A DNA stretch of 64,000 bases from Naegleria gruberi (Eukaryota): the NCBI GenBank assembly GCA_000004985.1, contig GG738889.1; one strand, given 5' to 3'. The number at the start of each line of letters is the position of its first letter. Position 1 is the stretch's first letter. The position numbers were made by a program, and so were the translations under genes. Shown here in pieces: positions 13,007-59,262 of the stretch. The notes under the pieces are model-generated. The model was not told the origin of the DNA. It worked only from the letters and a program-made list of their open reading frames with translations, and made no database searches.

Positions 13007-13079
13007 GCCGACATAGCTCAGTTGGGAGAGCGTAAGACTGAAGATCTTAAGGTCCCTGGTTCGATCCCTGGTGTCGGCA
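13007..13079 (+). tRNA. tRNA-Phe (anticodon GAA)
   Basis: GCCGACATAGCTCAGTTGGGAGAGCGTAAGACTGAAGATCTTAAGGTCCCTGGTTCGATCCCTGGTGTCGGCA folds into a 73-nt cloverleaf. It has a 7-bp acceptor stem (GCCGACA/TGTCGGC), a D-loop AGTTGGGAGAGC, anticodon loop CTGAAGA (GAA), a TpsiC arm GGTTCGATCC and discriminator A. It is a near-canonical eukaryotic tRNA-Phe sequence. Confidence 0.85.
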
Positions 13080-26635: not shown

Positions 26636-28213
26636 ATGGCAAACTACAAACGACTGACCCGTGATGTTGAATACTTCATCAGAAAGGAATATCTGGAAAG
26701 ATTGAAGAAGATCGGAGGTGATTTTTCATTGCCCACACGATCACTAAATAATTCCAATAATTCCTTCATGCTAATTGTGAATCCAATGATCATTTCTCAA
26801 CATGTATTTTCTTACTTTGAAGCTTATTCATCTGATTGGACTCGATTCTTGTTGGTTTGTAAAGAATGGTTTGAATGTATTGTCATGCAGGACGATGGAT
26901 TGTTGTGGAGAGAATTGTACAGAAGCATGCTCAACGGAATGACTAAATATTATAAAGTCCTTTCGCCATTCAATTCATTGAATTATCAATTGGAAAGCTT
27001 TGATTCGATTCGCCAACAAGATGTGAATTCATATCGTGTGAATGAGGAAAATTGTAATGATGAGAAATTTAAGGAAATTCCAGACAAGACATGGAAGGAA
27101 AATTATGACGACATTCTGATTCATAGTTTGGGATTGAAGAAACTCGAGACTGAATTCGATTCCAAGACTACGAGATATATTGCCAGATGCTTCCTAGATG
27201 CTGAAGTCAAGTTTAGAAATAGAGGAGAATTAGCAAGTGTCAGAGAACTCTTCCTACACAAATTCCTATTTGATGCCATCTTTCCAATGATTTTAAAGAA
27301 TCGAGTTGAAAGTCAAAAATATGAAAATCCACTATTAAGAAGTGATTTGAAAATTTTGGAAAAGAAATTGTACTTTGTTGAGACATCATGGTGTATTGAT
27401 ACCCTTTTAAATATTATGGAAGTTAAAAAGGGACTCATGTTGAGAATTTCATACTTGTCGAGTGAGGATGGACTGGTTCACCACCAATTCTATGGAACCA
27501 CAGAGAATGATAGAAATTTGAAATTCTTAATTGATGTAGAGGAGAGCTCGATCATTCTAGATGCCATTCCTGTTGACATTCACCAAAATTTGAGACACAG
27601 CACAGAGTTCGAAACTATTCAATTAGCCACTGGAATGGATTCCATCATTCATGAAGAATTCACTCATTATCTTACAACTTTACAAGAATTACTTGAGAAA
27701 AAGTTTGGTAACATTCACTTGGCTGAATTATTCTGTAAATATTGGTACTGTATCAATCGAATTGAAGACCCAGTTTCGGTCTCTTTCTCTGATGAAAATC
27801 CATTCTGGTTCTTGGATATTCTCTCCAAAAAGGCAAAAACCTCAATCGAGAAGAAATTCTTAGATTCACTCTCAGTTTCATGTGTTTCAATTCTTACAAT
27901 GTGCAGACAAACTCAAAAAGATTGGATATCACTTTCATCCTTTCATCTTGGAATTGAAGATAAGAAGAAGAAGAAGAAGAAACAGGAAACCCAACCTGAA
28001 AGTAAGGATCTTACCCAGGTAAATTCGAAACTCGAAACCTTTAATCTCTCGGTGGACGATTGTTGGAATTGGCGAGGAATTTTGATAAGGCAGAAGGATA
28101 GTAGAGTTGTATTAGAAGGATTAATTACCAGTAGAGAGGGAATCCTTCTCTTTGGCTTGGATGTTTATAATGCTGAACAGGGTTGCTTCTTTACATTTAA
28201 AAAATTAAATTAA
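26636..28213 (+). CDS. F-box-like domain protein (hypothetical), tandem to previous
   Basis: The 525-aa ORF starts at a real ATG. It has an F-box-like segment IISQHVFSYFEAYSSDWTRFLLVCKEWFECIVMQDDGLLWRELY and an internal KKKKKKK run encoded by an (AAG)n microsatellite at ~27961-27985. It is in the same orientation as, and immediately downstream of, the other F-box-like gene. Confidence 0.4.
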   Translation: MANYKRLTRDVEYFIRKEYLERLKKIGGDFSLPTRSLNNSNNSFMLIVNPMIISQHVFSYFEAYSSDWTRFLLVCKEWFECIVMQDDGLLWRELYRSMLNGMTKYYKVLSPFNSLNYQLESFDSIRQQDVNSYRVNEENCNDEKFKEIPDKTWKENYDDILIHSLGLKKLETEFDSKTTRYIARCFLDAEVKFRNRGELASVRELFLHKFLFDAIFPMILKNRVESQKYENPLLRSDLKILEKKLYFVETSWCIDTLLNIMEVKKGLMLRISYLSSEDGLVHHQFYGTTENDRNLKFLIDVEESSIILDAIPVDIHQNLRHSTEFETIQLATGMDSIIHEEFTHYLTTLQELLEKKFGNIHLAELFCKYWYCINRIEDPVSVSFSDENPFWFLDILSKKAKTSIEKKFLDSLSVSCVSILTMCRQTQKDWISLSSFHLGIEDKKKKKKKQETQPESKDLTQVNSKLETFNLSVDDCWNWRGILIRQKDSRVVLEGLITSREGILLFGLDVYNAEQGCFFTFKKLN

Positions 28214-31831: not shown

Positions 31832-34800
31832 ATGCAAGTTGCACCTGCAAGAGACCTCAAGCCTTGGAGAACATGTCTAAAACGGCTTGATAATTCTCAA
31901 CTCGAAGCGCTCTATGCTTACTTTTCTGCTTACAAACAACACTCAACAAATACAGCTTCTACCTCTTCTACTCCACCACAACAGGATAATAGTATTGAAG
32001 GAAAGAGAATTGTAATATTGGAAGTCATTGAGAGGAAATTGAGTAGAGGAGAGAGGATTAGTCTCATTGAAGAATTTGTTGATTACTTTGAACAAAATGG
32101 AACGTGGGATTCAATTAAGGATGATGTTATTATTCTAGAAGCGGAGGAGAGAAGATTGAGTGGAGGATTATCTTTTCGAAGTTCTCTTGATGGATTACCA
32201 GCAGGTGCTGGAGGAGGTGCTGCCACTGATGTAACTGGAGGAACACAAGCAACAGCAACCTCATCATCCTCTTCTTCAATGAGTACCTTCACAAAGATAC
32301 AGACAGCAATTTCTAATATCGGAATTGCCTTACAAGAAAAGAGGAGAGTTAAGTCGAAAAAATCCTTCATCTTTTCGATAGTAATGAATATATGGATGAT
32401 GTGGACAAGTATTTTCATGCCCTCGCTGGANNNNNNNNNNNNNNNNNNNNNNNNNNNNNNNNNNNNNNNNNNNNNNNNNNNNNNNNNNNNNNNNNNNNNN
32501 NNNNNNNNNNNNNNNNNNNNNNNNNNNNNNNNNNNNNNNNNNNNNNNNNNNNNNNNNNNNNNNNNNNNNNNNNNNNNNNNNNNNNNNNNNNNNNNNNNNN
32601 NNNNNNNNNNNNNNNNNNNNNNNNNNNNNNNNNNNNNNNNNNNNNNNNNNNNNNNNNNNNNNNNNNNNNNNNNNNNNNNNNNNNNNNNNNNNNNNNNNNN
32701 NNNNNNNNNNNNNNNNNNNNNNNNNNNNNNNNNNNNNNNNNNNNNNNNTGGATATGCCATTCTGTTTACAAGTTTGATTGTTCCCTACTTGATGGCTGGC
32801 TCTTTAGATTGCGACTCTAACAGTAATGTTATCATTGATGAGGTAGCTTATCAGGTTTTGAAAAGATTTCCCACACAGCCATGCTATCTCACTCCAAATG
32901 TCATATTCTATGCTATTTTCATTGCATCGATACCATTGGCAGTGCTTACTGTTGCCATTTCAACCATGTTGGTGGCCAATCTCCATCCAATGAATACTTC
33001 ATGGTTTGCAATGCAACACAGTTTCTTTAAATTATCCTTTAATGTTGTGAATAGTACGAGTATATTCTTCCACTTTCTTATACCAGCTGAATTTGCGTAT
33101 GGAAGAGCTATTGTTCACATTGCTTTTGCTCTTTTGAACATTTACATTTTTTGGAAAATGATACCATACTTTAGAAGAATTGAAAATTCATTCTATTTTG
33201 GAGCTATTACTGGTCGATTGGGTTGTGCTGTTGGTGTTTTAATTTCCTCATTAGTTAATCCAACAGATTCCTCTGAATTGGGTCTTGAAATGATGGGAAT
33301 GACCTTGGGTATTATTCTTTTGTGCTATCTGGTTGGTTTTATTACTATGGAAGTTTACACTCGTTTGGTATTTAGATATGTTAGAGATGTTTTGGCAAGG
33401 AATTCAGAGAGGGAGAAGGAAGCTGTAATGATTTATCACATCTTTGAGGAGAAGGATAGATTGAGGTTTTTACAAATGTTTCTTCGATTTGCATTGAGAG
33501 GTAGTCATGATATTGCAGATTTGGCAACTTCATTTGTCAAGTCAGCTGCTGCCTCAAAATCATTCAATGATCCAGAGTTGTTAATTCTGGGAGCGATGCT
33601 TGCTGCCTATAGATGGGAAGACTATGGCTATTCTTATGCCCAAGTGTTGATTAGAAGAGCCAACAGAGCCAACATTCCATACGCGATTCGTTTCTATTTG
33701 GCCGAAAGATCAAGAGAATTGGAAATTGACCAAACTAAGGATATCAATTCTGGACACAACTTTGTAGAAATCAAACATATTGTTGAGAAGGTTGAAAAAA
33801 AGACAGAAGAGCTCAGATCTCTACACAAACATTTTTGGAAGGAGTTAATTAATGAAGTTCCTAATATGGGCAAGCTGGATCAAGTTAATAGAAGAATGAC
33901 CTCGCTTTCGAGTGATATAGAGACTACCTATTCTAATTTAATGACAAATTACTCAAGGGAGAGACAAGTGCTCAGAGGATACGCCACCTTTCTTGAAAAC
34001 TTCAAATTCGATAAGGATCTAGCTCACGAGCTTGTACAGGAAGTTGCCAAAATTGAAGAGGAGGAATCAATAAGAGTTAAGAGAAAATCCTCTGGTTTGC
34101 ACATTCCCTATAACAGTAAGAGAAAGTTTGAGTCGTACAGCATTAGAAAATCCATTGAAGAACGTCCTATACAACCACAAGCAGATCAAGTTGATGATTC
34201 ATTTTCTGGAGTGGAAACTCAACGTGATGTTTCTAAAAAAGAATCCTTATTCAGAAATGCAATTAGAAATGGTGGAAATTCCAAAGTAATACTTTCTTCA
34301 CTTGTAATATTTGGATTTTTCACACTTACATTTTTCCTCTATTACTTGATTTTTGGTGTATATATTAGTATGAACGCTGGTGAGCATGTTAGTAGTGCTT
34401 ATTATATGTGTAAACCATCAACATCAACCATTGGTTTGCTGAGAGAAATAAGAATGAAACAAAATCTTAATCAGGTGATGACACTATTTCCAGAAGCAAT
34501 AACAATTTCCCCAATTATGGTAAATATTTCATTAGAAGAACACAAGACAAGACTCAGTGAATATGATTCCTTTTTCAAACAAATTACAAAAGAAGCACAA
34601 CAAAATAGATTTACGAGAGAGCTCTACGAGATATTTACCAAACCAGATATTACTATTTTCGTTCCATCTGTTCCAAAAAATAGTGGAACTTTGGATTTTA
34701 CCACAACAGATCAGAAAAATGTTAGTGTATTCGAATTAATTAATATTATTTCTGAATCAGCTACATATTTCAAAAATTGGAAAGGTGCAGATTACAACAA

Positions 34801-37305
34801 CACAATCCAATCGTTTGAGTTTATGTACGTTTGGGATAACAAGTTGATTGCCAGAAATTCTTTTGTAAAATTTTGTGAATCTGCCATTGCTGCCAATTCA
34901 GATGAAACAAACCAATTTTCCTTTATATTGAATGTTTCTTATGGTGCTACTGCTGGTGGTTACTTGATCATTTCTATTATCTATTTGATTGTGACAAGAT
35001 ATCAAATGGCAGAAGTTCCCCATGTTTTGAACATTTTCAAAAATAACCTTTCGAAAAATGTTGTGGGAAAGATCTATCATGAGATGAATGAGAAGAATGA
35101 CGATGATGCCACAACTCACCTTCCAAAAACTTCATTGACCAGACCTAATAATTTATTCTTTCTTTATGGAGTTTTGGTTATAGTATCATTGATACTTGTT
35201 GGTGGTCTTATTCTCATTGAATCGAATGTTAATTGTACTGATTCCATTCAAACTTCACTAAATATCAAACATGGAACATCTGTTCTCAGAGTTATTCACA
35301 GAGCAAGTTTCAGAGTTGGAGAATATTTTGCTTATTTTGGTCTACCAAAAACCCATCTCAACAGTGATTACATGACCACCACAGCAGAGCTTGATGGATT
35401 TTTAACAGATATCAAATCCCTGATGGCTCAATTGTTTACTGATTGGACAGCTTTAGTTTACGGTTCTGGTGGATCTGATGTTAGTGTTGGTAAATATTCA
35501 ACAATTGACAGATTAATTCAAGGAGTATCTTCTTGCAGTGATAATTCCACAATGGATGATACAGAATTAGTGGATTTGTGGAAAAACTGTTATGGATTGG
35601 AAAGAATGATTTCAACCTTTACTACTGACGTTTCCAAACTAAACGAACAGGTATACAATCAAAATTATGTGAAGAATTTTGCAAATTTCTTAAATGGATT
35701 TTTGGATATCTTTGTTCAGACAAATATTCTTTCAGACCACTTGATCAAATTCTTGGATTTATTTGTAGAAAATTCATCTTCACCTAATTTTGAGATTACT
35801 GGTGTATTTGGTGCATTGTTTTGCTTGGTTTGCATCTTTTTGTTCTATTCAATGTTTAATACATTGCAAAATAATCATGCTCAATTGATGTGTTTGAGAA
35901 ATATGTTAAATTATGTTCCAGTTGATGCCTTGGATTCGAATGAAGTGGTTAGAAACTTTATTCTTTACAATGCCATTCCAAGTCCATTCTCCAAGGTCTT
36001 TAAGAGTAAGACCGAGAATCCAACTGATGAAAACTCAAAGGTGAGAAGTGTTTTGAATTCTTCTGTTGAGGGAGCCTTCATTGCAGATGAAAATGGTTTT
36101 GTAGAGCTGATTAATCCAGCAGCTCAAAATATTTTCGGATTCCAACAACAATCTGATGTGGTTGGTACTCCTTTCATTAACATATTCGATACTAAGGATC
36201 ATGAACACATCAAAAAGATTATTCAAACCATGAAGGATAGTATGAAATTGTCAAATCACAAAAATGGAGAAGTTGCTGAGGTGGATTGTGTAAGAAAGAA
36301 TGGAACACAATTCCCAGCTATGGTTAATATGTTTATTGTTATTTTTGATAATTCACCTAACTTGGTTTGTTTCTTGAAAGATGTCACATCAGAAAAGAAG
36401 CATAATGCTATAATTGCAGAAGAGAAGGCAAAATCTGATAGATTATTGAGAAATATTCTACCAGAGTCTGTTGCTGCTCGTTTGAAATCGGGTGATACTT
36501 TTATTGCTGAAAAGTTTGCAGATATTACTTGTTTCTTTAGTGATATGTAAGTATTCAAGTATCAATTTTTATTCGAATGATTTTTAATTATTTTCATAGG
36601 GTTGGATTTACAAATCTATCATCAGGATTGAATCCAAATGAATTGGTAGGCATGTTGAATACAATTGTTAATGGATTTGATGCCTTGACTGATAAATATC
36701 AATTGGAAAAGATTAAGACTATTGGAGATGCCTATTTCGTAAGTAATTTCAATCTCTTCTCATAATTTCTAACACAATATATTTCTATCATAGGCTGTTG
36801 GTGGTATTGGAAATACTCAATCAGATCACCCTGAGAGAACTCTTAGATTTGCAATTTCAACCTTTGATGTGATTAAGGATTTCAATATGAAAAATCCAAA
36901 TACTCAAATTAATATCAGATGTGGAATCAATACTGGTGGTTGTGTTGCTGGTGTAATTGGTACGAAGAAGTTTGCATATGATTTGTGGGGTGTAAGTTGT
37001 CAATTTATTTTACTTTTATTTGAATGATTCAGGATACTATTAATGTTGCTTCAAGAATGGAATCAAATTCAAAACCAGGCCGTATTCAAATATCACGATC
37101 TACTTTTGAAAGAGTTCATGATTTGAAATTTGATTTTGAAGAAAGAAGATTGGATATTAAAGGAAAAGGCCTTTGTGCTTGCTATTTGCTTCACCAAAAA
37201 CATCACGAGAATCCAATAATTGAAAAGAAAGTAGAGGACCCATCCCCTCACATGTCTAGTTCAGTTTCTGCAACTACGATTGCCAGTACAAATGGAACCA
37301 ATTAA
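31832..37305 (+). CDS. Polytopic membrane adenylyl cyclase with PAS domain (class III nucleotidyl cyclase), at least 4 exons, containing scaffold gap
   Basis: The large exon 31832..36546 includes the 32431-32748 N gap. It has two or three TM clusters and a PAS fold (FIADENGFVELINPAAQNIFGFQQQSDVVGTPF…MVNMFIVIFDNSPNLVCFLKDVTSEKKH). The cyclase domain spans exons 36600..36738, 36794..36991 and 37033..37305. Its motifs are FSDM|VGFTNL, KIKTIGDAYF|AVGG and YDLWG|DTINVASRMES. The introns are GTAAGT…CATAG, GTAAGT…CATAG and GTAAGT…TTCAG. The Lys in EKIKTIGD and the Asp in YDLWGDT are the adenine-specifying pair. Confidence 0.8.
32431..32748. other. Assembly gap (318 N) inside the cyclase gene
   Basis: Uninterrupted N run. 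The reading frame shown across it in the ORF track is an artefact of gap length. Confidence 0.9.
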
Positions 37306-41605: not shown

Positions 41606-44600
41606 TTATTGAAGAAGCAAATCCCATTCTTCAACCTTTTTCAATATCACATCAATAGAAGGTCGTTTACCTGGCTCATGACTCCACATCTGGCGAATCA
41701 CTTTTGTCATTTCAAAAATCAATTCATGGTGAATTACTTGTTCCTTATCAAGAAATTCCTCACACCATTTCTTACACTCTTCACAAGTTGAGAATGGAAT
41801 GATTGGCCTCAAATTCTCCTCACAAACACTCTTATGGAAGTGATACGAACTACTAAATGGTGTTGGTTTGGTGATTTTCAACTTTTTGAGAACGTTTGGA
41901 TCTGAGCTATGGTAAGGTTCAATAATTTCGAATAATAATTGCCACATAATGATGGCCAAACTGTAGATATCAATAGAACGGGCGTCCTCTCTCTCAATTT
42001 CACCAGAGAAAAGCTCCGGAGCCATAAATGAGCTGGTTCCAATCTGACTGGTAATTGCTGAAATTGTGTGAGAACAAAAAGCTCGTCCTAATCCAAAATC
42101 ACACAGTTTGGCAGTTCCACTTTTATCGAGAAGGATATTGGCTGGTTTCAAATCTCTATTCCACAAATGAAAGATTATTTTAGGTGAAATTTAGTATTAA
42201 TACATACCTGTGGACAATGAAATTCGGTTCCAAATGATGCAAATAATAAATTCCACTCACAATGTTCCTCAATATTGCCAATTTTTCATTGAGAGTGCAT
42301 TTGGAATAGCCACGTTGCATGGATGCAATCATTGCCTCTAAACTCTTATCCATGCACTCCATGGCAATGAATCTCTTTGTTGGTGTCGATGAAACACCAT
42401 AGAAATTGATAATATTTGGATGCCTTAATTTGCTTAATAAAATTGCTTCCACTTTGAAATCATTTTCTGAAATACTCAAATTATTCAAATCGAATACCTT
42501 GACTGCAATTGTCATTCCATTGAATTTGGTTGCAAAAACAGAACCCATTCCACCTTCTCCGAGTCTCTTGATTGGTTTGTCCATATTGAGTTGTTCTATT
42601 GGAATGATGAATTTATCTGCCTCTTCCACATAGTAAGAACTAGATCCCATACTTGATTCATAATGGTCCAACAATCTTTCATCTAAAACCAGATCAGTTT
42701 CAGTCAGTTTCTTATTCTTTCGTTTTACAGAAATATACGAAATAAAGATAATGAAACAAATGGCAGTAACGATGAGTAAAACAATGGCAGATGAGAGTCC
42801 CAATCCGAGGGCAATCGTGTTGATACTACAATCCTTTCCAAAGTAGGAAGATTGACAAAGACACTCATCCTGTTTTACACATGTTCCATGTCCTGAGCAA
42901 GCACTTGATCCTGATTGACCAAAACAAATAGCAACCCCACAATCTTTTCCTGTATATCCACTATTACAAACACAATTATCTGGTGCTGTACAAGATCCAT
43001 TTCCATGTGAGCAAACTTCCACAGATGTCTTTGGATAATTAAAGCAAATTGGTAATTGACAGTTATTGCCAAAAAAACCTTGATTGCAAGAACATTGATT
43101 AATATCGAAACAATTTCCGTTTCCACTACACACTGATTCTGAAATATTTGCTGGTATTCCAAAACATATTGGAATACACATTGTCAAATCTCTACTCAAA
43201 AGGTAACCCTCTCTACAAAATGGTGTCAGTTGTCTCACGACATTTTGAGTAGAATCTGATAAGTAAATCGATCCAGAACTAGGGGAAATTGTAAATCCTT
43301 GTGGAGATGCCAAATAATCACTCGTTGCCAAAATTTCATTCAAATCCAATTCTTTCACAGTTGAATTTCCAGCAATTGTGTAAACTAGATTAATTCCATT
43401 TCGTCTACTTATTTTCCTAATCATTGCATTCAGTGAATCAATGAAAATAATATCCACAAAATCAGGAGGTACCAATTTCACTATAGTTGGATAATTAAGC
43501 TCTGCCTGTTCAGCAATTCCATCTATGTATCCAGGATTTCCACTGCCTGCAATGGTGGAAATTGATCCATTCACATGAATCATTCTAATTCTATTATTAT
43601 TCGAATCGGCGAATATAATTTCATTATCCAAATTGATGGCAATTCCGGTTGGCTGAGCCAAAAGTGCAGACTTAGCATCATTTGAATCTCCATTAAAACC
43701 ATATCCCTTTCCTGCAATTGTTGAAATTATTCCATTTCTATCAATCTTTCTAATCTTGTTATTTCCAAAATCGGTCACATAAATTTCTCCATTGAGAGGA
43801 GAAACAGAAACCGCATAAGGTTTAATTGAAGCATAGGATGCCAATCCCTTATCACCTATTCCACCAACTATAGTCTTGACGATACCAGTTTTAAAATTGT
43901 AAAGTTTCACCAAATTACTGTAAGTATCAGCAATTGCCAGATATTGAGTTCCACCACTTGGTAACTGGAGATATCTGACGCTTGAAGGATAGCTGAGCTT
44001 GGATTTGATTCCCAATCCCTCCTCAAATTCTCCACCTCCAATCAATGTATCAGCAATTCCAGTAGAAATCGAGACAGTCCTAATCCTATTATTATTAGTA
44101 TCAGCTATAAACATGGTATTCTGTGAAATGGTTATACTTTTAGGGAGATAGAGTTCCATATTTCTAACAAATCCACCGTCACCTCCATTACCAATTTCAC
44201 CTGTGCCTGCATAGGTATCTGTAACACCATTAATAGTGGCATATCGAATTCTGTGATTACCCGTATCGGCAATGCAAATCATTTGGCTATCTACCACGAC
44301 AACATCCTCAGGAAAGCTCAATTGAGTTTCAGTTGATAAAATATTATCACCATTGAATCCTTCATGTCCAGAACCAGCAACTGTCTTTACCATTTGAGAT
44401 GTACTACTGCCCAAGTAAATTGATCTAATTCTATGATTTCTAGAGTCGGCAACCAGTAAAACTTTATCAGCAGAGTCAATATGAATTCCTTTTGGCTATA
44501 GAGTTTGTAAATATTGCAAATTATCAAAAATTTCAAACTTACACTATTAAATGTTGTGTTCAACAGTGTGTTATCTCCATTAAAACCCTTCACTGTTGGT

Positions 44601-46402
44601 ATTCCAGCAAATAGTTCCAATTTTCTAGTTCTAATATTCACTCGCCACAAACAATGTTTTTCACTATCTGAAAAATAAACATAATTACTTATATAGGCAA
44701 TGCCAACTGGAGTGCCAATACCACTGTCCTTTGAAACCAGTGTTTGGGATATTCCAGTACTAACATCTACCATTAAAACTCTATAATTCTTTGTGTCTGA
44801 AACAAATAGAGTGACATTCTTTTCGAGATTGTAATTCACTACTGCAACACAAACTCCTTGTGGACTGTTGAGAACTTCTGATAAACCATCAACCATTTGT
44901 GTATTGGTTGAATTAAAGAAGAATGATCCAGTCATTGGTTGAGATTCTAGAGTATTCAAATTGAATTTCACAAGAAAATTCGAAGCCCAATAGTTAATAT
45001 TATTAACTACGAGTAAGTTTGATTGGTGATCAGTGGTAATTGATATTGGATCAGTAAATATAGGAATCTTACTGTGTAATCCACGTTTCAAATCTAATAG
45101 AGAAGTGCTAATCCTTTCAGATATTCCACTCATAAATGAATATTTCAGTAAACGAGCTGATTGAGAATCAGAAATCAGCAATTCCTCTTCTCCATTCTTA
45201 TTCTTAATAATGATCAAATCTTTTGGTGATCTGAGACCAGTCATTGTTCCTCTGGTTTTTTCAGCAAAGGGAACCCTACTCGAGTAAATTGTTGAAATTA
45301 ATCCTGACCTTCTATCCACCATTCTCATTTCATCTGAAACATCCACAAAAACAATTGCTCCTCCAATGGAAATTGTGACTGATATTGCATTGGTTATTTG
45401 AGCTTCAATGGCTAGCCCTCCATCGCCCAATGATCCTGTGTTTGTTCCCTTAATGACATGTTCGAAAACTCCCATTTCGAGTGAATTCACACTTTCATCC
45501 TGATTGTAAACAGTTGTAAATTTCTTAGATGTCACTGCTTGAGGTCCAGAAAAATAAAAAGTTTCTTCCACAATCGTATTAAGTCCATTTTGATATGTTT
45601 TCAAAGAGGTAACATCAAAAGCAAAAGACATACTATTCCTACAGTCAAAAACAGTACGTGTTCCATTTCTGAATATTCTTTCACCTTTTGATTGAAGTAA
45701 AACTTGCCATTCATCTCTTTCATTAATGATAATTCCTTGAATTGACTCTGAAAAAGTCCTGTACAGAGATACATAACCATTCCTTAACAAGAATACATTG
45801 TAATCTTGTGTGAAATAAACATCAATTTCATCCATATTCGAATACTTGTTAATTGGAACGGAGATTGTTTGGGGATAAATAGAAATTGATGTGGCATTCA
45901 CTTTTTCTGTGGAATCCAAAAATTTACATTGACCATCTCCAGCCAAAGTTGTGATCATTCCATCTGCAGTGTTTAGTCTCTTCAAAAAACAATCCGAATA
46001 GAAATAAATTAAATCAATTGCTCTAGTTGACGACGATTGAAAGGAAACAACCTGAAACTTGGGCCAAACATTGGACCGAACAAAACTGATATCACCTGTT
46101 TCAATGTTCAATTTTGCAAGTTGATATCCTTCACTACCTGTGTTTGATGTGAAATAAATAATGTTTGGATCAACTTTTGAGAACATTGCCCTCGCAGCAA
46201 CGCCAGACAGCTGGTTCTTCTTCTCCAAATATCCAATAACAGGTTTTGATTTATATTGCACAAGTCTCTTCCGAACTAAACTTTCCGTTGTTGGTATTTC
46301 TTGTTGACAAAAAACTGGTGATGTGAAAAACAATGTCACGATTAAAAAACACATCAAAACAGATGCCTCTTTACTGAAAGATAATGATGACATTTTTTTC
46401 AC
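41606..46402 (-). CDS. NHL-repeat receptor protein kinase (signal peptide, about 14 NHL beta-propeller repeats, Cys-rich EGF-like region, TM, Ser/Thr kinase); 3 exons 46402..44543, 44495..42208, 42155..41606
   Basis: The signal peptide is MKKMSSLSF…CFLIVTLFFTSPVFCQQ. There are many NHL-type blades (GNHRIRYATINGV, ADTNNNRIRTV, ADSNNNRIRMI, SDTKNYRVLMVD…). The EGF-like Cys clusters include CSGNGNCFDINQCSCNQGFFGNNCQ. The TM is AIVLLIVTAICFIIFISYISV. The kinase has GEGGMGSVF, AVKVF, HRDLKPANILLD (split IVHR|DLK by a 52-nt GTATGT…AATAG intron), DFGLG and APE. A second 47-nt intron (GTAAGT…CTATAG) joins TTFNS|PKGIHIDSADKV. Together these merge three ORF-track entries into one protein of about 1565 aa. 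The ORF-track M at 44414 is a TTG inside exon 2. Confidence 0.7.
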
Positions 46403-53349: not shown

Positions 53350-54330
53350 GTGAAAGAAGAAAAAATGTTTCATCGTGATGAAGAAGAAAAGGTTTGCATT
53401 AGCTTGTGCGATTTCCAGTTTGATGATGATTGTAAAAGAAGATTGCACTCCATGCTGAAAGGAAAACTCTGCTCTTCTTCTATCGAATTAAAACCCTTCT
53501 CCAAACAATTTAATCTTTTAAATACTATTTCATTGTCTCCCTATGCTTCTTCTTCGAATACTTCCTTTTATCAGGATGTTAGAATTGTGTACAAGTACAA
53601 TTTGATCATCATTACACAGGGAAGTGACTTGATTCTCCTGGATTATCAATCTAAACAATATCTAAAATCAATTTCAATTGAAAATGGCATTACTTCCATT
53701 GAAATTGATAATGCCGAAGAGTTTCTCTATTTATTGGTCATTAATTATTCGACAAAATGTTTTTCCTTGCAAAAACATGATTTGAATCAATTGGTTAGTA
53801 GTGGTGGTAATAATTCATTACTATGGAAGAATAGCTATGGTTTTTATTTTAGAGATGACGAGCATATCTCACAAAGAAAGATAGCCCTAAAGGAAGTCAA
53901 TTCAAAACAATATGTTTACCTAATGTACTTTACCGATGGACTGGTTGTTTACAATGGCAGTAATGGTGAATTAGATCATTCATTTGTGGATCTTTACTAT
54001 AATTACTTTATGAAGTTCAATGAAAAAGGCCAGATTTTAACATCAAGTCTTAATGGATTAGGAAAATATACTTTTTGCTTGGAAGAAAACAAATGGAAAG
54101 AAGAGGAAACTGAGCCTCTCTATGCATCAGTGGAGGGAATACACTATGAGAAAAGTTCACAATTGATTTATACTATTGAAGATTCATATTTCATTGCGTG
54201 GTATGATGAACAGTTTAATGTAGAAAATAAGAAATTGGATTTACAGCAGATAACAGCAATGACTATTGATGAGAGAAGAGGAGAAATTTATATAATTTCT
54301 TCAGATAGAAATTTAAATATTTACAATTAA
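53350..54330 (+). CDS. Hypothetical protein (possible beta-propeller)
   Basis: The ORF-track start is GTG. The first ATG is at 53365 (MFHRDEEEKV…). It has repeated hydrophobic/aromatic blocks but no recognisable motif. Confidence 0.35.
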   Translation: MKEEKMFHRDEEEKVCISLCDFQFDDDCKRRLHSMLKGKLCSSSIELKPFSKQFNLLNTISLSPYASSSNTSFYQDVRIVYKYNLIIITQGSDLILLDYQSKQYLKSISIENGITSIEIDNAEEFLYLLVINYSTKCFSLQKHDLNQLVSSGGNNSLLWKNSYGFYFRDDEHISQRKIALKEVNSKQYVYLMYFTDGLVVYNGSNGELDHSFVDLYYNYFMKFNEKGQILTSSLNGLGKYTFCLEENKWKEEETEPLYASVEGIHYEKSSQLIYTIEDSYFIAWYDEQFNVENKKLDLQQITAMTIDERRGEIYIISSDRNLNIYN

Positions 54331-54370: not shown

Positions 54371-55654
54371 TTATTTATATCTCAAGTTTAGTAGCATGTT
54401 TAGATGTCCTAAAAATACAGTGAATTCTGATTCACTTAGAGTTTGAGCTTTGGCCTTTCCACAGCTCTCTACATATTTACATTTTTCAAACGTGTCAATA
54501 TATTCCATCCAAATGTCATACACTTCAGGATTTTTAGTCATGTTGTGGTATTTAGATAAGACAATATCACAAATATATTGTCTTACTGTTACATTTGCTG
54601 GAAAATATAATTCTGGATCCTTTGATGCCACAGATCGTTCAATGAGCAGTGGAGAATACAGTACAAACTCACAAAATGAAAAGTAATTCCTCTGAATAAT
54701 CCTATACAAATCATCCATGTGTAAATTTACAATATTTTGCTCTGCCATAACAACAGTTCCAGTAGAAGAGTTTAAATTTCCCTTTGAAAGAGATGAAAAA
54801 TATTTTCCTCCATTGGCCATATTAAGTTGAGATGTTGATTGGGAGAGAATTTTAGTGGATGATGATTGAACAATACCAGTGGATGGTGGAATTGGTTGAG
54901 TGGATGGTGGTGGAGTAGTGATTGAGATTCCAACATTTGAAGGATTTCTAAATTCAAGTTCAATATTTTCCAAAGATGCTCCAGCAATGGTTGAAGAAGT
55001 TGGCTTCCTTTCCAATAATATACCCTTTCTCAATTCAGTTAAATCTGTAGATTGATGAGCAGCAACTCTTGAACTATTCAAAATTGAAATATTCGAAAGA
55101 GAACTTCCCATTGAATCTCTCACATTATTGTAGAATACATATCCTTCACATTGTGGATGATTGGTTGAACTGCTCACTACATATAAATGAGCAAAGTGAG
55201 GAAGAGCTTTCAATTGGAAAACAGGTGGTTTCCAATTTTGAAAAATTTCATTAGCTTGAATAGAATAGGCCTTTACCGAATTAGAAACTGTCCAATGTGA
55301 TGCTTTTGATTTGAAATATTCCTTATCAAATTCTCGGGGTTGTTTTTCTCTCTTTTGAAATTGATAAAATTTATATTTTCCTATTTAATTTTCGAATATA
55401 TTTAATGATAATATTATTCGAAACCTACTTTTTGAATTTCTCAAGATGGCACACGTAATTAAAATCAACAAGAATAATACAATAAACACCGAACCCATGA
55501 TGAGGATAATAGATGTATAATCGACTTGAGTAGTTGAAATGGCTTGGTTGATGGCCATTACAACTGGTTGTTGTTGGTCGATTAAATTATTCTCGTTATC
55601 ATTCAAATAGTCCGAAATGTATTCGAATGTGTGATGAAGAATATCCGAATCCAT
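54371..55654 (-). CDS. Hypothetical type II (signal-anchor) membrane protein, 2 exons (55654..55429 and 55380..54371; 48-nt intron)
   Basis: Exon 1 encodes MDSDILHH… followed by a single TM (IILIMGSVFIVLFLLILITCAIL). A GTAGGT…AAATAG intron of 48 nt (phase 1) joins it in frame to the 54371..55213 ORF (…AILRNSK|RKYKFYQFQKRE…). That ORF otherwise starts at a TTG. The total is about 411 aa. The luminal part is Ser/Thr/Pro-rich with a conserved-looking C-terminal block. Confidence 0.45.
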
Positions 55655-55834
55655 CCTATTTTTTTTTAAATTTTATTAAAATCCTAATAATAATTACTAC
55701 ATATTTAAATACGTTATACATTAAAGAGCTAATGAAACAATTATTGATAATTTTTGAAACCCACCTATTAAAGGAAATTTTATTACATATTTACAATTCA
55801 TTACAAAACTCAATATTTAAAAACAAATTAAAAA

Positions 55835-56401
55835 ATGCGATGCAAAGCTTCAAGTGAATCCCTAGAAGCGATCCAATCCTTCTTCATATCAAATTCCATC
55901 ATTCATAATAGTAATGAAATTAATCACCAACAACATGAATCAAAAAGTAACAAACAAAAGGAACAAGATTCAAATTCTTCATTGTTTGGAAACTTTTCCT
56001 TGATCGGAAGGGATGTATGGCAAGAGGTGATTATGAAATTTATTAATCCGATAGAATTGATGCATATGAGAAGAGTTTCAAGTGAATTTAATTTTTGGAT
56101 TGAATGTTTGGATGATGAATTGTATTGGAAAGAGTGCCAGATGAAGAATATGAGAGGAATGATCAAGGGAATGATCATTGATCCGATATCGGAAAAGTAT
56201 TTTCTCAGATATTGGAAAATATTGATGGAAAAAACACGGAATAATACTGATGAAAAGTTTTCCTATAGAAAAATTACCTTAGATATTTGCAAAGATTTAC
56301 AAATGGAAAGGAGGATTAATGTAAATTATAGAATTTATTTGAATAAGGGATTAATTGATGAGAAACATTTGAAAATTCCACAAAAGGATGAGTCAATTTA
56401 G
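55835..56401 (+). CDS. F-box protein
   Basis: The ORF starts at a real ATG. The F-box is VWQEVIMKFINPIELMHMRRVSSEFNFWIECLDDELYWKECQ. It ends at a TAG (56399..56401) that is in frame with the next ORF. Confidence 0.5.
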   Translation: MRCKASSESLEAIQSFFISNSIIHNSNEINHQQHESKSNKQKEQDSNSSLFGNFSLIGRDVWQEVIMKFINPIELMHMRRVSSEFNFWIECLDDELYWKECQMKNMRGMIKGMIIDPISEKYFLRYWKILMEKTRNNTDEKFSYRKITLDICKDLQMERRINVNYRIYLNKGLIDEKHLKIPQKDESI

Positions 56402-56404
56402 AAT

Positions 56405-57016
56405 GTGAGAACTGCTATTATTATTGAGGGAAAACTAGCAACAACAAATGCACTCTTGTTCACTTATCATGATGGCATATTTCCATATGATTACATTCCA
56501 ACTATTTTCTCTAATACAGATATTAAGGGATTGGTCCTCAAATCGGAGAGTTCACAAGCCAAGATTACATATTCCAATTTTCCAATGATGTGTTTCGAGA
56601 GTGTGAGTGCACATTTAACATTTTACAATAATGCAGTTGTTTTAATTTTTTTTAACAAGTTATTGAGATCGAGTTGGAATGAAGTTGCCCATTCTATCAT
56701 TCCTTCACTTTCTATAAAACCTGGATGTATTTATATTCTGATAGGACTAAATTGGGGTGCACTATCTCAGAATAGCTCAATGTATAATTTGAAGTATACA
56801 TGCGAGCATTATTCGGATGAATTTGTGGCAAATAGTGAAATTTTGGAATATATTCATGGAAAGAAGTTTCTTGCATATGTTGATTTGAAACCAAGAAGTG
56901 AGAAGGAAATATTTACATTTATGGATTCGATTGTTAAATTGGTCGTTATGAAAGATAAGGGATATAATTTATTTGAAAAGGATTTTCTTGCCAAAGTTGA
57001 CGATATTTCTCGATAG
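56405..57016 (+). CDS. Rho-family-derived pseudo-GTPase domain (no ATG; in frame with upstream F-box ORF across a single TAG)
   Basis: The 203 codons are open in an AT-rich genome. The residue immediately after the TAG is N, and the next codon, GTG (56405), occupies the position of the Rho initiator Met. Then comes [36 protein letters not shown], versus Rho/Rac (M)[38 protein letters not shown]. Later blocks are [17 protein letters not shown] (compare VFLICFSLVSPASFENV) and YILIGLNWG (compare ILVGTKLDL). The P-loop GxxxxGKT, DTAGQE and NKxD are all destroyed, so the domain cannot bind GTP. Confidence 0.5.
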   Translation: [203 protein letters not shown]

Positions 57017-57294
57017 TTTATCTTTTTAGAGACTTATGTTCCTGGCTTGACTCTAAACAAAGTTTATTTGACATGCTTCAGATATTCAAGTTCCCTCAAA
57101 TAAGAAATTAAACAAGATAGGGAATTCGTTTTTAGATATAGTCTTGGCTTCCCGTAAAGAAATCTGGATAAACACTTTGATATATTTCAGAATGAAAAGA
57201 TTCATTTCCTTAATATCACAACTCAGTTTTACAGTAATAAATTTAACAAATAAAGAGTTTGATTGTAAAGTTTTTTTGAATATTTTTGAAAAAA

Positions 57295-59262
57295 ATGGGA
57301 CAATCACTCCAGAGTCAATTAGTGAGCAGTTGCCAATCGGATCAAGTCGAATTGTGCAAAAGTATTCTCAATCAAGATTTAAATCTATTCAATTATGAAG
57401 ATGATAAGGTAAGTATTAGTGCCTGCCTTCGGAATTGGTTATTAATAATTAATACATTAAATAGTCGATGGTTTGTATTGAAACTCTAAATTAACGTTTA
57501 AACTTTGGATGAATATATTGAATAATATTGAATAATTGGAATATGAAGAATATATTATTGATGTGTGCCAAGTATGAATCGGTTGGAATTATCAAAATGT
57601 TATTTTCCGATTTTAAAACACAAGTGATGGCAATTATCGATAAGACTGATGTAGGTTTAACCTCTGTTGAAATTACGATTATATCATCATTATTGATTTT
57701 AATAGTGGCCTTCGAATTATGTAGGTTTATAAAATTGTTGAGGATTATTGGAAATATTGTTGTGATGAATGATGGAATTATTATATGAAATATTGGAAAA
57801 ATTAGACGGCTTTGCATTGGGCTTGTTATAATCAAAATTTGGAGATTGTGAAAATTCTGGTGGAGAATGGAGCCAACACAACACTTGAAAATGTAGGTTA
57901 TTGTTAAAGGTTATTTCAAAAACGAAACTTGAATAGGCGGATGGTCATAAAGCAATTGATTTGTGTGAGAAAAATTCATCAGTTTATTCATATTTAGCAA
58001 GTGATAGAGCTTCATTGTTTGATTGGATGAAAAAGACTCTTCAACCAAACAAGTACAATCATTCGAATTATAAACCATCGGGAAATGAGGACTATGTCAC
58101 AACAGATACTGATGATGGGTTAGTATTTATTTATTCGAATGTATTATTCACACATGTGAAATCTTAGTTTTGTGGAAATTGAAAAGGTGGAGGTTATTGA
58201 AACGGAGAAAACTCAACGAGAGGAATCAAAGCCACTCACAAGCAAATTACAAATTTTGGAAAATATTACAAAGAGCTTTGCCAAAACTTTTAAAATTGAA
58301 TCGACACTTTCACATGACATTACATCGAGTGTTAGATTTTCCAAAGTTAATGACATGGAATTAATGGATCCTATTGCCTCGGGAAGTGAAGGAAAGGTAT
58401 TCTATGGAAGGTGGAAAAAGCAATCAGTTGCCATCAAGGTCATTGAAGTGCCCTACCTCACTGAGGGGCTTGTGGAAAATTTAAATTTAATTCTCAACAT
58501 TTCACACAAGTATTGTGTCTCTCACCATTCATTTTCCTATGATGAGGAAAATTGTAAATTGTACATAATTATGGAACTTATGAATACCAACCTGTTCAAG
58601 TATATTTTCAGACAAAGGAAAGAATTGACTCTAAAAGAAAAGGTTCATGCATTACATAGTATTTCTATTGGAATGTTCTATTTGCACGATATGAATCCTC
58701 CTGGTAGGTTAGGAATTTCATTAGATTGTTAACAATATTATTTTACATAATATTGAAAATAGTTTTAAATTTGGATTTGAAATTGGAAAATATCTTGATT
58801 AATATTGGAAATGATGGAAGACCTTCAGATATCAAAATTTGCGACTTTGGATTGTCAATGTTTAAGAGCAAGGCAGAATTCATTAAATTGACAGATCCAG
58901 TGGGTACTTTGAGAGCCATTGCCCCAGAAATTCTTCATAATTTCACATGTTCTGAAAAATCAGATGTCTACTCATTTGGAATTTTAATGTATGAATTATT
59001 ATTCGGAAGAGTTGCTTATTATGACTATTTGGAAAATGCAAATGAAAATGATGGAGATGACTTGTTGTTGAATATTGTCAATAATCACAAACGACCAACT
59101 ATTCCATCTGACTATACAATGCCAACTCTCAATCAAGAACGAACAAGTGTGGAAACCTTAATAGATATGATGCAGAAATGTTGGGTGGAAGATCCAAAAC
59201 AACGACCAACCTTTGACCAAATTACTACAGAATTGGAAAAGATTGTTTTGCCGTGCAAATAA
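57295..59262 (+). CDS. Ankyrin-repeat protein kinase (TKL-like) with N-terminal MGxxxS myristoylation motif; 6 exons
   Basis: The exons are 57295..57408 (MGQSLQSQLVSS…NYEDDK|GTAAGT), ~57549..57650 (ANK-like NILLMCAKYESVGIIKMLF…; acceptor uncertain), 57806..57892 (TALHWACYNQNLEIVKILVENGANTTLEN), 57937..58118, 58168..58703 (GSEGKVFYG, AIKVI, …YLHDMNPP) and 58763..59262 (VLNLDLKLENILI, DFGLS, APE, stop). The introns are 43-140 nt with GTAAGT, GTAGGT or GTTAGT donors. All joins remove in-frame stops of the ORF-track pieces and preserve frame. The catalytic loop reads NLDLK instead of HRDLK. Confidence 0.62.

What the first reader, a model, noticed from the sequence alone, without database searches (positions are those of the whole stretch)
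55835..57016. F-box ORF and a Rho-derived pseudo-GTPase share one frame, separated only by a single TAG; the GTPase-like part has no ATG
The 203-codon ORF at 56405..57016 clearly descends from a Rho/Rac GTPase. [12 protein letters not shown] matches [29 protein letters not shown] matches VFLICFSLVSPASFENV, and YILIGLNWG matches ILVGTKLDL. Every nucleotide-binding motif is lost: the P-loop becomes [14 protein letters not shown] is gone, and NKxD becomes LNWG. The position of the Rho initiator Met is a GTG. The frame is continuous with the upstream F-box ORF (55835..56401) across one in-frame TAG at 56399-56401. No intron of plausible size (43 nt or more in this genome) can remove the stop. A 600-nt open frame in AT-rich DNA is unlikely without selection. 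Three explanations are possible. (a) It is an F-box/pseudo-GTPase fusion protein made by stop-codon readthrough or with a sequencing error at the TAG. (b) It is a very recent pseudogenised fusion. (c) It is a GTG-initiated dead GTPase used as a protein-interaction module. An F-box fused to a catalytically dead Rho fold would be an unusual substrate-adaptor design.
Basis: partly seen in the sequence, partly recalled or inferred. Interest (0 to 1): 0.7.

Follow-up and report, generated by a model that had tools for sequence, protein, structure and literature searches.

The report
F-box–dead-Rho gene split by TAG
This is one Naegleria gruberi gene for an F-box protein with a Rho-like domain that has lost its nucleotide-binding motifs, and the stop codon splitting it in the reference genome is a one-base change absent from a near-identical wild strain, so it is a strain-specific truncation (or a base-call error), not unusual decoding.

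Summary
ORF-A (55835-56401) and ORF-B (56402-57016) share one frame and are separated only by TAG at 56399-56401. ORF-B descends from Rho/Rac: every significant PDB hit is Rac, ROP, Cdc42 or RhoG, and Foldseek ranks Rac1 first. Its G1, G3, G4 and G5 motifs and the CAAX box are gone.

The window is N. gruberi. The reference annotation splits the locus into two "predicted proteins", 71286 and a truncated 71287.

The decisive result is a metagenome contig, L047. It is about 98-99% identical to the window and has the same flanking genes. It carries one uninterrupted 392-codon ORF with GAG (Glu) where the window has TAG.

Both N. lovaniensis homologues also read straight through the aligned position. 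The N. lovaniensis orthologue's upstream ORF passes Pfam's F-box cut-off.

So the F-box + pseudo-Rho fusion is ancestral and real. The TAG is a private G-to-T change. GTG initiation and an 81-nt candidate intron are both rejected, and programmed readthrough is not needed.

The architecture resembles RhoBTB and seems undescribed, but the stop itself is ordinary.

The parts
55835..57016 (+). Whole gene: F-box / linker / pseudo-Rho. It is a single 392-codon ORF in the near-identical strain (L047) and is interrupted once in the window.
55835..56398 (+). ORF-A, annotated in the reference as NAEGRDRAFT_71286 (XP_002673644.1, 188 aa, 'predicted protein').
56000..56143 (+). F-box-like motif, LIGRDVWQEVIMKFINPIELMHMRRVSSEFNFWIECLDDELYWKECQM.
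   Evidence: It is 38% identical over 48 aa to N. lovaniensis L001 9690-9833. That ORF passes Pfam PF00646 (26.7 bits against a 20.5 cut-off). The N. gruberi excerpt itself scores 14.8 bits. The best PDB hit of the two-sequence profile is the KDM2B/FBXL10 F-box, but E=0.28 is not significant.
56261..56398 (+). Conserved linker (…RIYL…EKHLKIP…) that leads into the Rho-like domain.
   Evidence: It aligns collinearly with the N-termini of P0003 and P0004 in one HSP that spans the stop. The last 26 codons score z=4.3 against the N. lovaniensis orthologue. The codon-usage signal is specific to this frame.
56321..56401 (+). Rejected candidate intron: GTAAAT…ATTTAG, 81 nt, phase 0, whose AG is the AG of the TAG.
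   Evidence: Read. It is rejected because the stretch is conserved coding sequence and is retained in the intact ORF of L047.
56399..56401 (+). In-frame TAG. It is GAG (Glu) in L047, so base 56399 is T in the window and G in L047. The aligned N. lovaniensis codon is TCT (Ser).
56402..57013 (+). ORF-B: Rho-derived GTPase-like domain with its nucleotide-binding motifs lost.
56426..56446 (+). Position equivalent to the P-loop (G1): EGKLATT instead of GDGAVGKT.
56480..56515 (+). Retained switch-I / beta2-like segment [12 protein letters not shown]. It is the stretch most like true Rho.
56747..56758 (+). Position equivalent to G4: LNWG instead of TKLD. The NW pair is invariant across the family.
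56879..56893 (+). Position equivalent to G5: VDLKP instead of ECSAL. [FY][VI]DxKP is a family-specific motif.
56588..57016 (+). Reference gene model NAEGRDRAFT_71287 (XP_002673645.1, 142 aa). It starts at an internal ATG and lacks beta1-beta3, so it is an annotation artefact of the stop.

Best explanation
What it is. 55835-57016 is one gene of Naegleria gruberi. It has three parts: a short N-terminal tail with an F-box, a roughly 85-residue linker, and a C-terminal domain that descends from a Rho/Rac GTPase. That domain has lost G1, G3, G4, G5 and the prenylation box.

The stop. In the reference sequence, Glu codon 189 (GAG) has become TAG by one G-to-T change. I take this as a real, very recent truncating allele peculiar to the sequenced strain. 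It may sit on only one haplotype. It leaves an F-box + linker product of 188 residues, and the pseudo-Rho part is no longer made beyond background readthrough.

What is shown: the fusion, the Rho descent, the motif loss, and that the stop is private to the reference.

What is inferred:
- The intact protein is a substrate receptor of an SCF (Skp1-Cul1-F-box) ubiquitin ligase.
- Its nucleotide-free Rho fold is the target-binding module.
- The best-kept Rho surface, the switch-I/beta2-like FPYDYIPT(I/V)F, may bind a protein that normally recognises Rho (a GEF, GAP, GDI or effector).

My confidences: about 0.9 for one ancestral fusion gene with a derived stop; about 0.72 that the stop is a real allele (the figure given as this explanation's confidence); about 0.4 for the SCF/decoy mechanism.
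For: 1. Intact copy. Contig L047 (ENA ERZ929261, 1992 nt) aligns with window 55570-57547 at about 98-99% and has the same neighbouring genes. It holds one 392-codon ORF, P0007, with GAG at the TAG position.
2. Differences against L047. The CDS has 7 substitutions in 1179 nt and one 3-nt in-frame indel. The upstream spacer has 18 substitutions in 177 nt and indels of 7 and 3 nt.
3. N. lovaniensis. Both homologues are open across the aligned position, in one HSP from the linker into the domain.
4. No room for a second gene. There is no intergenic space between the two ORFs. ORF-B's first in-frame ATG is codon 62 (the reference model starts at the second, codon 63), either of which would remove beta1-beta3.
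5. Coding signal. Codon usage is frame-specific in ORF-A, in the 81-nt stretch and in ORF-B, at the level of control genes.
6. Long-term constraint. Non-synonymous differences are well below synonymous ones (N. gruberi against L003: dN 0.42, dS 1.78). Family-specific motifs NW, SW and DxKP are conserved.
7. Rho descent and the F-box.
8. Real allele or error (my estimate). The two strains differ at about 6 per 1000 sites in this CDS. That is far above the error rate I assume for a Sanger consensus (own knowledge), so a real difference is the likelier reading.
Against: - No reads, traces or RNA data for the reference strain could be examined, so a base-call error or a heterozygous site is not excluded.
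- Differences from L047 in the CDS are 5 non-synonymous to 1 synonymous. The N. gruberi lineage has about four times as many private amino-acid changes as the L003 lineage (23 against 6, chi-square 10). The gene may already have been under weak constraint.
- The closest other relative (L003) also has one in-frame TAG, at another site but inside the same 9-mer TTTAGAATG. I cannot explain this.
- The N. gruberi F-box does not reach Pfam's threshold by itself.
- Skp1 binding and the absence of nucleotide binding are untested.
- The AF2 model is of low confidence in the N-terminal half of the domain.
Confidence: 0.72

Rival explanations
1. The gene is intact in the sequenced strain too. The T at 56399 is a base-call or assembly error in the draft reference.
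For: The window is draft sequence with an N-filled gap. Only one base separates TAG from the GAG of L047. The frame has no other defect.
Against: The other six CDS substitutions against L047 look like ordinary strain differences, at about 0.6%. That rate is well above the error rate I assume for a Sanger consensus (own knowledge). The 5:1 non-synonymous to synonymous ratio suggests weak selection against damaging changes.
Confidence: 0.1
2. There is functional (programmed) readthrough of TAG. The full-length protein is still made in N. gruberi, and the stop acts as a dosage control.
For: The downstream 204 codons are still open and look like coding sequence. A second relative (L003) has an in-frame TAG elsewhere in the domain, inside the identical 9-mer TTTAGAATG. 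I estimate the chance of that coincidence at about 1e-3.
Against: The stop is not conserved: it is GAG in the 98-99% identical L047 and TCT in N. lovaniensis. The base after the stop is A, which I recall as favouring termination (own knowledge). No other long same-frame ORF pair in the window is split by TAG. TAA, TGA and TAG all behave as stops here. No paper in the library reports readthrough in Naegleria.
Confidence: 0.07
3. The whole small family is decaying. These are old pseudogenes and there is no functional F-box-pseudo-Rho protein.
For: Three loci each carry an interruption: the window (TAG), L003 (TAG) and N. lovaniensis L001 (the F-box ORF is out of frame with the rest). Evolution is fast in the N. 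gruberi lineage. Only four relatives exist among 1.84 billion cluster representatives.
Against: L047 and P0004 are intact. Homologues that are only 26-47% identical each keep roughly 170-260 open codons around at most one defect. About 5.8% of random substitutions in this sequence would create a stop. Non-synonymous change is below synonymous change, and family-specific motifs are conserved. The N. lovaniensis frame break falls in an A4 run in a PacBio-only, Quiver-polished assembly, so it may be an artefact.
Confidence: 0.05
4. An 81-nt intron (56321-56401, GTAAAT…TTTAG) removes the stop and joins …QMERRIN to NVRTAIII….
For: The segment is GT..AG, phase 0 and a multiple of three in length. 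Its GC is 25%. Its size lies within the 52-222 nt range of introns inferred in the window.
Against: The 26 codons it would remove are conserved in N. lovaniensis (RIYL…EK.LKIP, z=4.3, 16 of 5000 shuffles). They have a strong in-frame codon-usage signal. They are part of the uninterrupted ORF of L047. The donor has A at +5, whereas every intron inferred here has G there (GTAAGT, GTAGGT or GTATGT).
Confidence: 0.01
5. These are two separate genes, and the pseudo-GTPase is initiated at GTG 56405 or at the internal ATG used by the reference annotation.
For: The reference annotation lists two proteins, 71286 and 71287.
Against: There is no spacer or promoter room between the ORFs. The sequence upstream of the GTG is conserved coding sequence that is continuous with the domain in three homologues. 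The 142-aa model would lack beta1-beta3 of the G fold.
Confidence: 0.02

Closest known systems
RhoBTB proteins (RhoBTB1-3; Dictyostelium RacA)
   Same: A Rho-derived, atypical GTPase domain is joined in one polypeptide to an adaptor module of a cullin-RING ubiquitin ligase. In RhoBTB the BTB domains assemble Cul3 ligases (PMC4931677). The GTPase-like part is non-canonical.
   Different: The ligase-docking module here is an F-box (Cul1/Skp1 type), not BTB, and it is N-terminal rather than C-terminal. No BTB domain was detected. The Rho-like domain here has lost all of G1, G3, G4 and G5. I treat the origin as independent, and the family was found only in Naegleria-like sequences.
Class I pseudoGTPases (p190RhoGAP pG1/pG2; AAGAB N-terminal domain)
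   Same: A G-domain fold with degenerate G motifs, used as a protein-interaction module (PMC5593906, PMC12490416).
   Different: Those domains are not clearly Rho-derived by sequence and are not attached to an F-box. Absence of nucleotide binding is only inferred here.
Canonical Rho/Rac/Cdc42/ROP GTPases
   Same: They are the best and only significant sequence and fold matches. The alignment is collinear over the whole domain. FP.(D/E)YIPT.F.N is retained, and there is an insert-length region after G4.
   Different: There is no P-loop, DxxG, [NT]KxD, SA[KL] or CAAX. Identity is 16-20%. Pfam's Ras family is below threshold.
F-box proteins with other C-terminal modules (FBXW, FBXL, Kelch; for example window 10064-11143)
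   Same: An N-terminal F-box followed by a distinct C-terminal domain, which in SCF receptors is normally the substrate-binding part.
   Different: The C-terminal module is a dead small-GTPase fold. I found no description of such a combination (one search returned no papers).

Membership tests
Rho family small GTPase | Significant sequence similarity to Rho, Rac or Cdc42 over the whole G domain | tested here: met
   The PDB phmmer best hit is E=5e-5 over residues 10-181, and every listed hit is a Rho-family protein. The family profile's best hit is E=7e-6.
Rho family small GTPase | G1 P-loop GxxxxGK[ST] | tested here: not met
   EGKLATT in N. gruberi, ESEKAIA in P0003, and absent in P0004.
Rho family small GTPase | G3 DxxG(Q), G4 [NT]KxD, G5 SA[KL] | tested here: not met
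   G3 is absent, G4 is LNWG and G5 is DLKP.
Rho family small GTPase | Switch-I threonine (G2) and the effector loop | tested here: met
   YIPT is retained in N. gruberi and L003; it is IPS in P0003.
Rho family small GTPase | C-terminal CAAX prenylation box | tested here: not met
   The protein ends …VDDISR.
Rho family small GTPase | Small-GTPase fold | tested here: inconclusive
   The AF2 model has pLDDT 58 and pTM 0.63. The top Foldseek hits are Rac1, at E about 1e-3 and TM 0.44-0.49.
PseudoGTPase (no nucleotide binding) | G-domain ancestry with loss of the nucleotide-binding motifs | tested here: met
PseudoGTPase (no nucleotide binding) | Experimental absence of GTP/GDP binding | not testable with these tools
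   This needs a binding assay on the recombinant domain.
F-box protein (SCF substrate receptor) | F-box motif recognised by Pfam PF00646 or PF12937 | tested here: inconclusive
   N. gruberi: no hit on the whole ORF and 14.8 bits on an excerpt against a 20.5 cut-off. The N. lovaniensis orthologue ORF scores 26.7 bits, above the cut-off, and is 38% identical to the N. gruberi motif.
F-box protein (SCF substrate receptor) | Binding to Skp1 | not testable with these tools
   The AF2 model of ORF-A alone was unusable (pLDDT 36).
RhoBTB | Tandem BTB domains C-terminal to the Rho domain | tested here: not met
   No BTB or any other Pfam hit.
Programmed stop-codon readthrough gene | The stop codon is conserved among relatives, with coding conservation downstream | tested here: not met
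   The downstream sequence is conserved, but the stop is GAG in L047 and TCT in N. lovaniensis.
Variant genetic code (TAG read as sense) | TAG appears in frame in conserved genes and is not used as a terminator | tested here: not met
   ORF statistics fit the standard code. TAA dominates and TAG also terminates ORFs. There are no other TAG-split long ORF pairs.

The most novel reading that the evidence does not exclude
The intact protein (P0007 and its N. lovaniensis orthologue) is an SCF ubiquitin-ligase receptor whose target-binding module is a nucleotide-free Rho decoy. The decoy would capture a Rho regulator or effector through the retained switch-I/beta2 surface. This would be an independently evolved, Cul1-based counterpart of RhoBTB in Heterolobosea. 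A smaller possibility (about 0.05) is that the two independent in-frame TAGs inside TTTAGAATG mark a context-specific readthrough or mutational signal.
Probability: 0.35. Interest if true: 0.55.

Novelty: new variant of a known kind. Interest (0 to 1): 0.3.

Why it matters
- It corrects the reference annotation. NAEGRDRAFT_71286 and 71287 are two halves of one gene, and the N. lovaniensis model C9374_004600 probably lacks its F-box exon or frame.
- It adds an architecture that appears undescribed: an F-box joined to a dead Rho fold. This parallels RhoBTB and would be a compact case for studying how pseudoGTPases serve as recognition modules.
- It shows that the apparent "readthrough candidate" is an ordinary strain-private nonsense change. 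That is a useful caution for scans that flag same-frame ORF pairs.
- The biological reach is modest. The family is tiny, fast-evolving and seen only in Naegleria-like sequences.

Tried and rejected
- Variant genetic code. Rejected from ORF statistics.
- 81-nt intron 56321-56401. This was my own first idea, and it was rejected by conservation and by L047.
- GTG or internal ATG start. Rejected.
- The search for homologous proteins with the fused sequence and an X at the stop found nothing, not even the identical reference proteins. The X probably spoiled the query, because later alignment queries found those proteins.
- The look-up of encoding contigs on N. gruberi products found nothing. The reference genome is not in that position index.
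- JGI metagenome scans:
  - The single-protein scan found no relative.
  - A degenerate FN[KR]xxRxSW…NW DNA pattern gave 43 loci, and tblastn showed none to be homologous.
- AF2 of ORF-A alone was unusable (pLDDT 36), so no fold search was run on it.
- Homology between the N. gruberi N-terminal tail and the N. lovaniensis upstream frame-2 ORF is not significant. I therefore claim only one frame break in L001.
- No F-box was found upstream of the paralogue P0004.
- A splice solution for the N. lovaniensis frame break exists only with weak splice sites. It is left open.
- Literature searches for the locus tag, the ENA project, Naegleria readthrough, and pseudoGTPase + F-box found nothing relevant.
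Full report
**1. What is in the sequence.** The window is AT-rich (30-38% GC). It is gene-dense eukaryotic DNA that uses the standard genetic code, with TAA as the dominant stop and TAG the rarest. Introns are short and begin GTAAGT, GTAGGT or GTATGT; those I read mostly end in ATAG.

ORF-A (55835-56401, ATG start, 188 codons) and ORF-B (open from 56402 to 57016) are in the same frame. A single TAG at 56399-56401 separates them. No other pair of long open frames in the window is split in this way.

**2. Source and current annotation.** An exhaustive HMMER search of 1.84 billion cluster representatives with ORF-B found only four relatives. One is 100% identical to ORF-B residues 63-204. It is N. 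gruberi XP_002673645.1 (NAEGRDRAFT_71287), a 142-aa "predicted protein" that starts at an internal ATG.

ORF-A is annotated separately as NAEGRDRAFT_71286 (XP_002673644.1, 188 aa). The reference genome therefore carries this TAG, and its annotators split the locus in two.

**3. The C-terminal half is a Rho derivative without its nucleotide-binding motifs.**
- Pfam finds nothing in ORF-B.
- phmmer against PDB returns 100 hits at E<=10, and all 60 listed are Rho-family proteins. The best is rice Rac1 4u5x, E=5e-5, aligned over residues 10-181.
- A five-sequence family profile gives 98 hits at E<=0.01. The 60 listed are all Rac, ROP or Cdc42, best E=7e-6.
- The paralogue P0004 touches Pfam's Ras family below threshold (16.2 bits).
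- An AlphaFold model built from three sequences is only moderately confident (pLDDT 58, pTM 0.63; the C-terminal half is at 67-85). Its best Foldseek matches in PDB are Rac1 complexes, followed by other Rho proteins.
G1 GDGAVGKT becomes EGKLATT. DTAGQE is lost. TKLD becomes LNWG. CSAL becomes DLKP. The CAAX box is missing.
- [12 protein letters not shown] keeps 8 of 12 residues of Rac1's [12 protein letters not shown].

Across the family, the replacement motifs are themselves conserved: FNKL.R.SW, NW and [FY][VI]D.KP. This is a protein family with its own constraints, not random decay of a GTPase.

**4. The N-terminal half carries an F-box.** The N. gruberi sequence alone is sub-threshold. The full ORF gave no Pfam hit, and a 61-aa excerpt scored 14.8 bits against PF00646.

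In N. lovaniensis an unannotated ORF (L001 9657-9947) lies immediately upstream of the homologue P0003 on the same strand. It is 38% identical to N. gruberi residues 56-103. It passes Pfam's F-box cut-off, with 26.7 bits against 20.5 (23.8 bits in the reconstructed protein).

The two-sequence profile's best PDB hit is the F-box of KDM2B/FBXL10, but E=0.28 is not significant. I accept the F-box by this transitive evidence and mark it as not proven for the N. gruberi sequence itself.

**5. The segment 56321-56401 (GTAAAT…ATTTAG, 81 nt, phase 0) would excise the TAG and keep the frame. That idea fails on four counts:
- The 26 codons it would delete align with the N. lovaniensis orthologue (RIYL…EK.LKIP; z=4.3, 16 of 5000 shuffles).
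- tblastn gives one continuous HSP from the linker through the stop position into the domain. This holds in both N. lovaniensis homologues, where the aligned codon is TCT.
- The stretch has the strongest in-frame codon-usage signal of the locus.
- The donor lacks the G at +5 seen in every inferred intron.

The same continuity rules out a GTG or internal ATG start for a separate pseudo-GTPase gene.

**6. The decisive evidence.** The 90%-identity cluster of the ORF-A protein contains a 392-aa member from an ENA metagenome assembly, P0007. Its sequence is ORF-A + Glu + ORF-B.

Its contig is L047 (ERZ929261, run ERR1078381, 1992 nt). It aligns with window 55570-57547 at about 98-99% and has the same upstream and downstream genes. 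It reads TCAATTGAGAATGTG where the window reads TCAATTTAGAATGTG.

| Region | Substitutions vs L047 | Indels |
|---|---|---|
| CDS (1179 nt aligned) | 7 | one, 3 nt, in frame |
| Upstream spacer (177 nt aligned) | 18 | 7 nt and 3 nt |
| Downstream spacer (280 nt aligned) | 3 | 14 nt and 2 nt |

The seven CDS substitutions are one synonymous, five non-synonymous and the stop/Glu change.

The fusion gene is therefore real and intact in a wild, near-identical strain. The TAG of the reference is a derived single-base (G-to-T) difference.

**7. Real allele or error?** I could not see reads. The strains differ at about 0.6% in this CDS. The error rate I assume for a Sanger consensus is far lower (own knowledge). 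The 5:1 non-synonymous to synonymous ratio suggests that damaging changes are only weakly removed here. From these I estimate:
- real nonsense allele, possibly on one haplotype: about 0.72;
- base-call error: about 0.1;
- functional readthrough: about 0.07.

Nothing else in the 393 codons is broken, although 5.8% of random substitutions would create a stop. The interruption must therefore be very recent.

**8. Constraint on the family.** Synonymous sites are saturated between homologues (pS 0.56-0.85), while pN is 0.32-0.50. For N. gruberi against L003, dN is 0.42 and dS is 1.78. That indicates purifying selection over most of the divergence.

A relative-rate test with N. lovaniensis as outgroup shows faster protein evolution in the N. 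gruberi lineage (23 private changes against 6, chi-square 10). This fits weak or relaxed constraint before the stop arose.

**9. Unresolved oddities.**
- The closest other relative is the 779-nt ENA contig L003, 47-52% identical. It has its own in-frame TAG inside the domain (GINWGIL*NDPVM). It lies at a different site from the window's TAG but inside the same 9-mer, TTTAGAATG. I estimate the chance of that coincidence at about 1e-3, and I have no explanation for it.
- In N. lovaniensis the F-box ORF (frame 0) and the linker + domain ORF (frame 2) overlap at L001 9932-9947. One extra A in the AAAA run there would join them. That assembly is PacBio-only and Quiver-polished (PMC6125883), so this may be a homopolymer error. 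A weak-site intron is also possible.
- The paralogue P0004 has the linker and domain but no detectable F-box upstream.

**10. How it most likely works.** Shown: one ORF with an F-box, then a linker, then a Rho-derived domain whose nucleotide-binding motifs are replaced by family-specific ones.

Inferred from what is established for F-box proteins (own knowledge): the F-box docks on Skp1-Cul1, and the C-terminal domain selects the target. The only strongly Rho-like surface left is the switch-I/beta2 region. That surface is where effectors, GAPs, GEFs and GDIs bind true Rho proteins (own knowledge). My working model is therefore a nucleotide-independent Rho mimic that presents a Rho-binding protein to the ligase, with confidence about 0.4.

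In the reference strain the allele would yield only the 188-residue F-box + linker fragment.

**11. Comparison with known systems.** The nearest analogue is RhoBTB. It joins an atypical Rho domain to BTB domains that assemble Cul3 ligases (PMC4931677). The logic is the same, but the docking module, the domain order and the origin differ.

As a domain, it belongs with the class I pseudoGTPases such as p190RhoGAP pG1/pG2 and AAGAB (PMC5593906, PMC12490416). It is not a functional member of the Rho family, because four of the five G motifs and the CAAX box were tested and are not met. A search for papers combining pseudoGTPase and F-box found none.

**12. Verdict.** The striking feature, the stop, has an ordinary explanation.

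The architecture is a new variant of known kinds. It is confined to a tiny, fast-evolving family seen only in Naegleria-like sequences. Interest is modest (0.3).

Noticed in passing
L003 277-279 (ENA ERZ27254845, contig k141_1595075): The closest non-gruberi relative of the pseudo-Rho domain also has one in-frame TAG. It is at a different codon from the window's TAG but inside the identical 9-mer TTTAGAATG. An F-box gene follows it on the same strand (L003 583-777).
   Followed up: partly
L001 9657-9947 and 9932-10756 (N. lovaniensis PYSW02000021.1): The orthologue's F-box ORF is unannotated and one frame off from the annotated 251-aa model C9374_004600. One extra A in an AAAA run would fuse the two. 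The assembly is PacBio-only. A tRNA-Met gene sits just upstream (L001 9234-9305).
   Followed up: partly
window 24812-26455 and 26636-28213 (+): Two tandem genes of about 530 aa each have an N-terminal F-box-like motif (Pfam PF12937: 21.6 and 24.3 bits, cut-off 24.3). Their C-terminal parts match no Pfam family. They may be another lineage-specific F-box family.
   Followed up: partly
window 10064-11143 (+): An F-box-like + Kelch beta-propeller protein. This 64-kb window is rich in F-box genes.
   Followed up: no
window 58704-58762 (+), 42156-42207 (-), 19949-20170 (-), 36739-36793 (+), 57411-57464 (+): The inferred introns begin GTAGGT, GTAAGT or GTATGT (always G at +5) and mostly end in ATAG. 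Lengths range from 52 to 222 nt. GTAGGT is an unusually common donor.
   Followed up: partly
window 31832-36550 (+): A long ORF (1572 codons) contains an N-filled assembly gap. This shows that the window is draft sequence.
   Followed up: no
window 41606-46402 (-): ORFs that look like a receptor-type gene, judged from reading the translation only: long repeat-rich extracellular part, cysteine-rich EGF-like stretches, a hydrophobic segment and a protein kinase domain interrupted by a 52-nt intron.
   Followed up: no
window 53350-54330 (+) vs L001 8087-9091 (-): The neighbouring gene is weakly homologous between N. gruberi and N. lovaniensis (E=5e-6) but in the opposite orientation. Synteny around the F-box-pseudo-Rho gene is therefore partial, with an inversion.
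   Followed up: partly
protein cluster of P0005: The 90% cluster also lists P0006, an unrelated 45-aa ENA sequence. This looks like a clustering artefact.
   Followed up: no
window 13007-13079 (+): A tRNA-Phe (GAA) gene. It is the only tRNA in the window, and no suppressor tRNA is present.
   Followed up: yes
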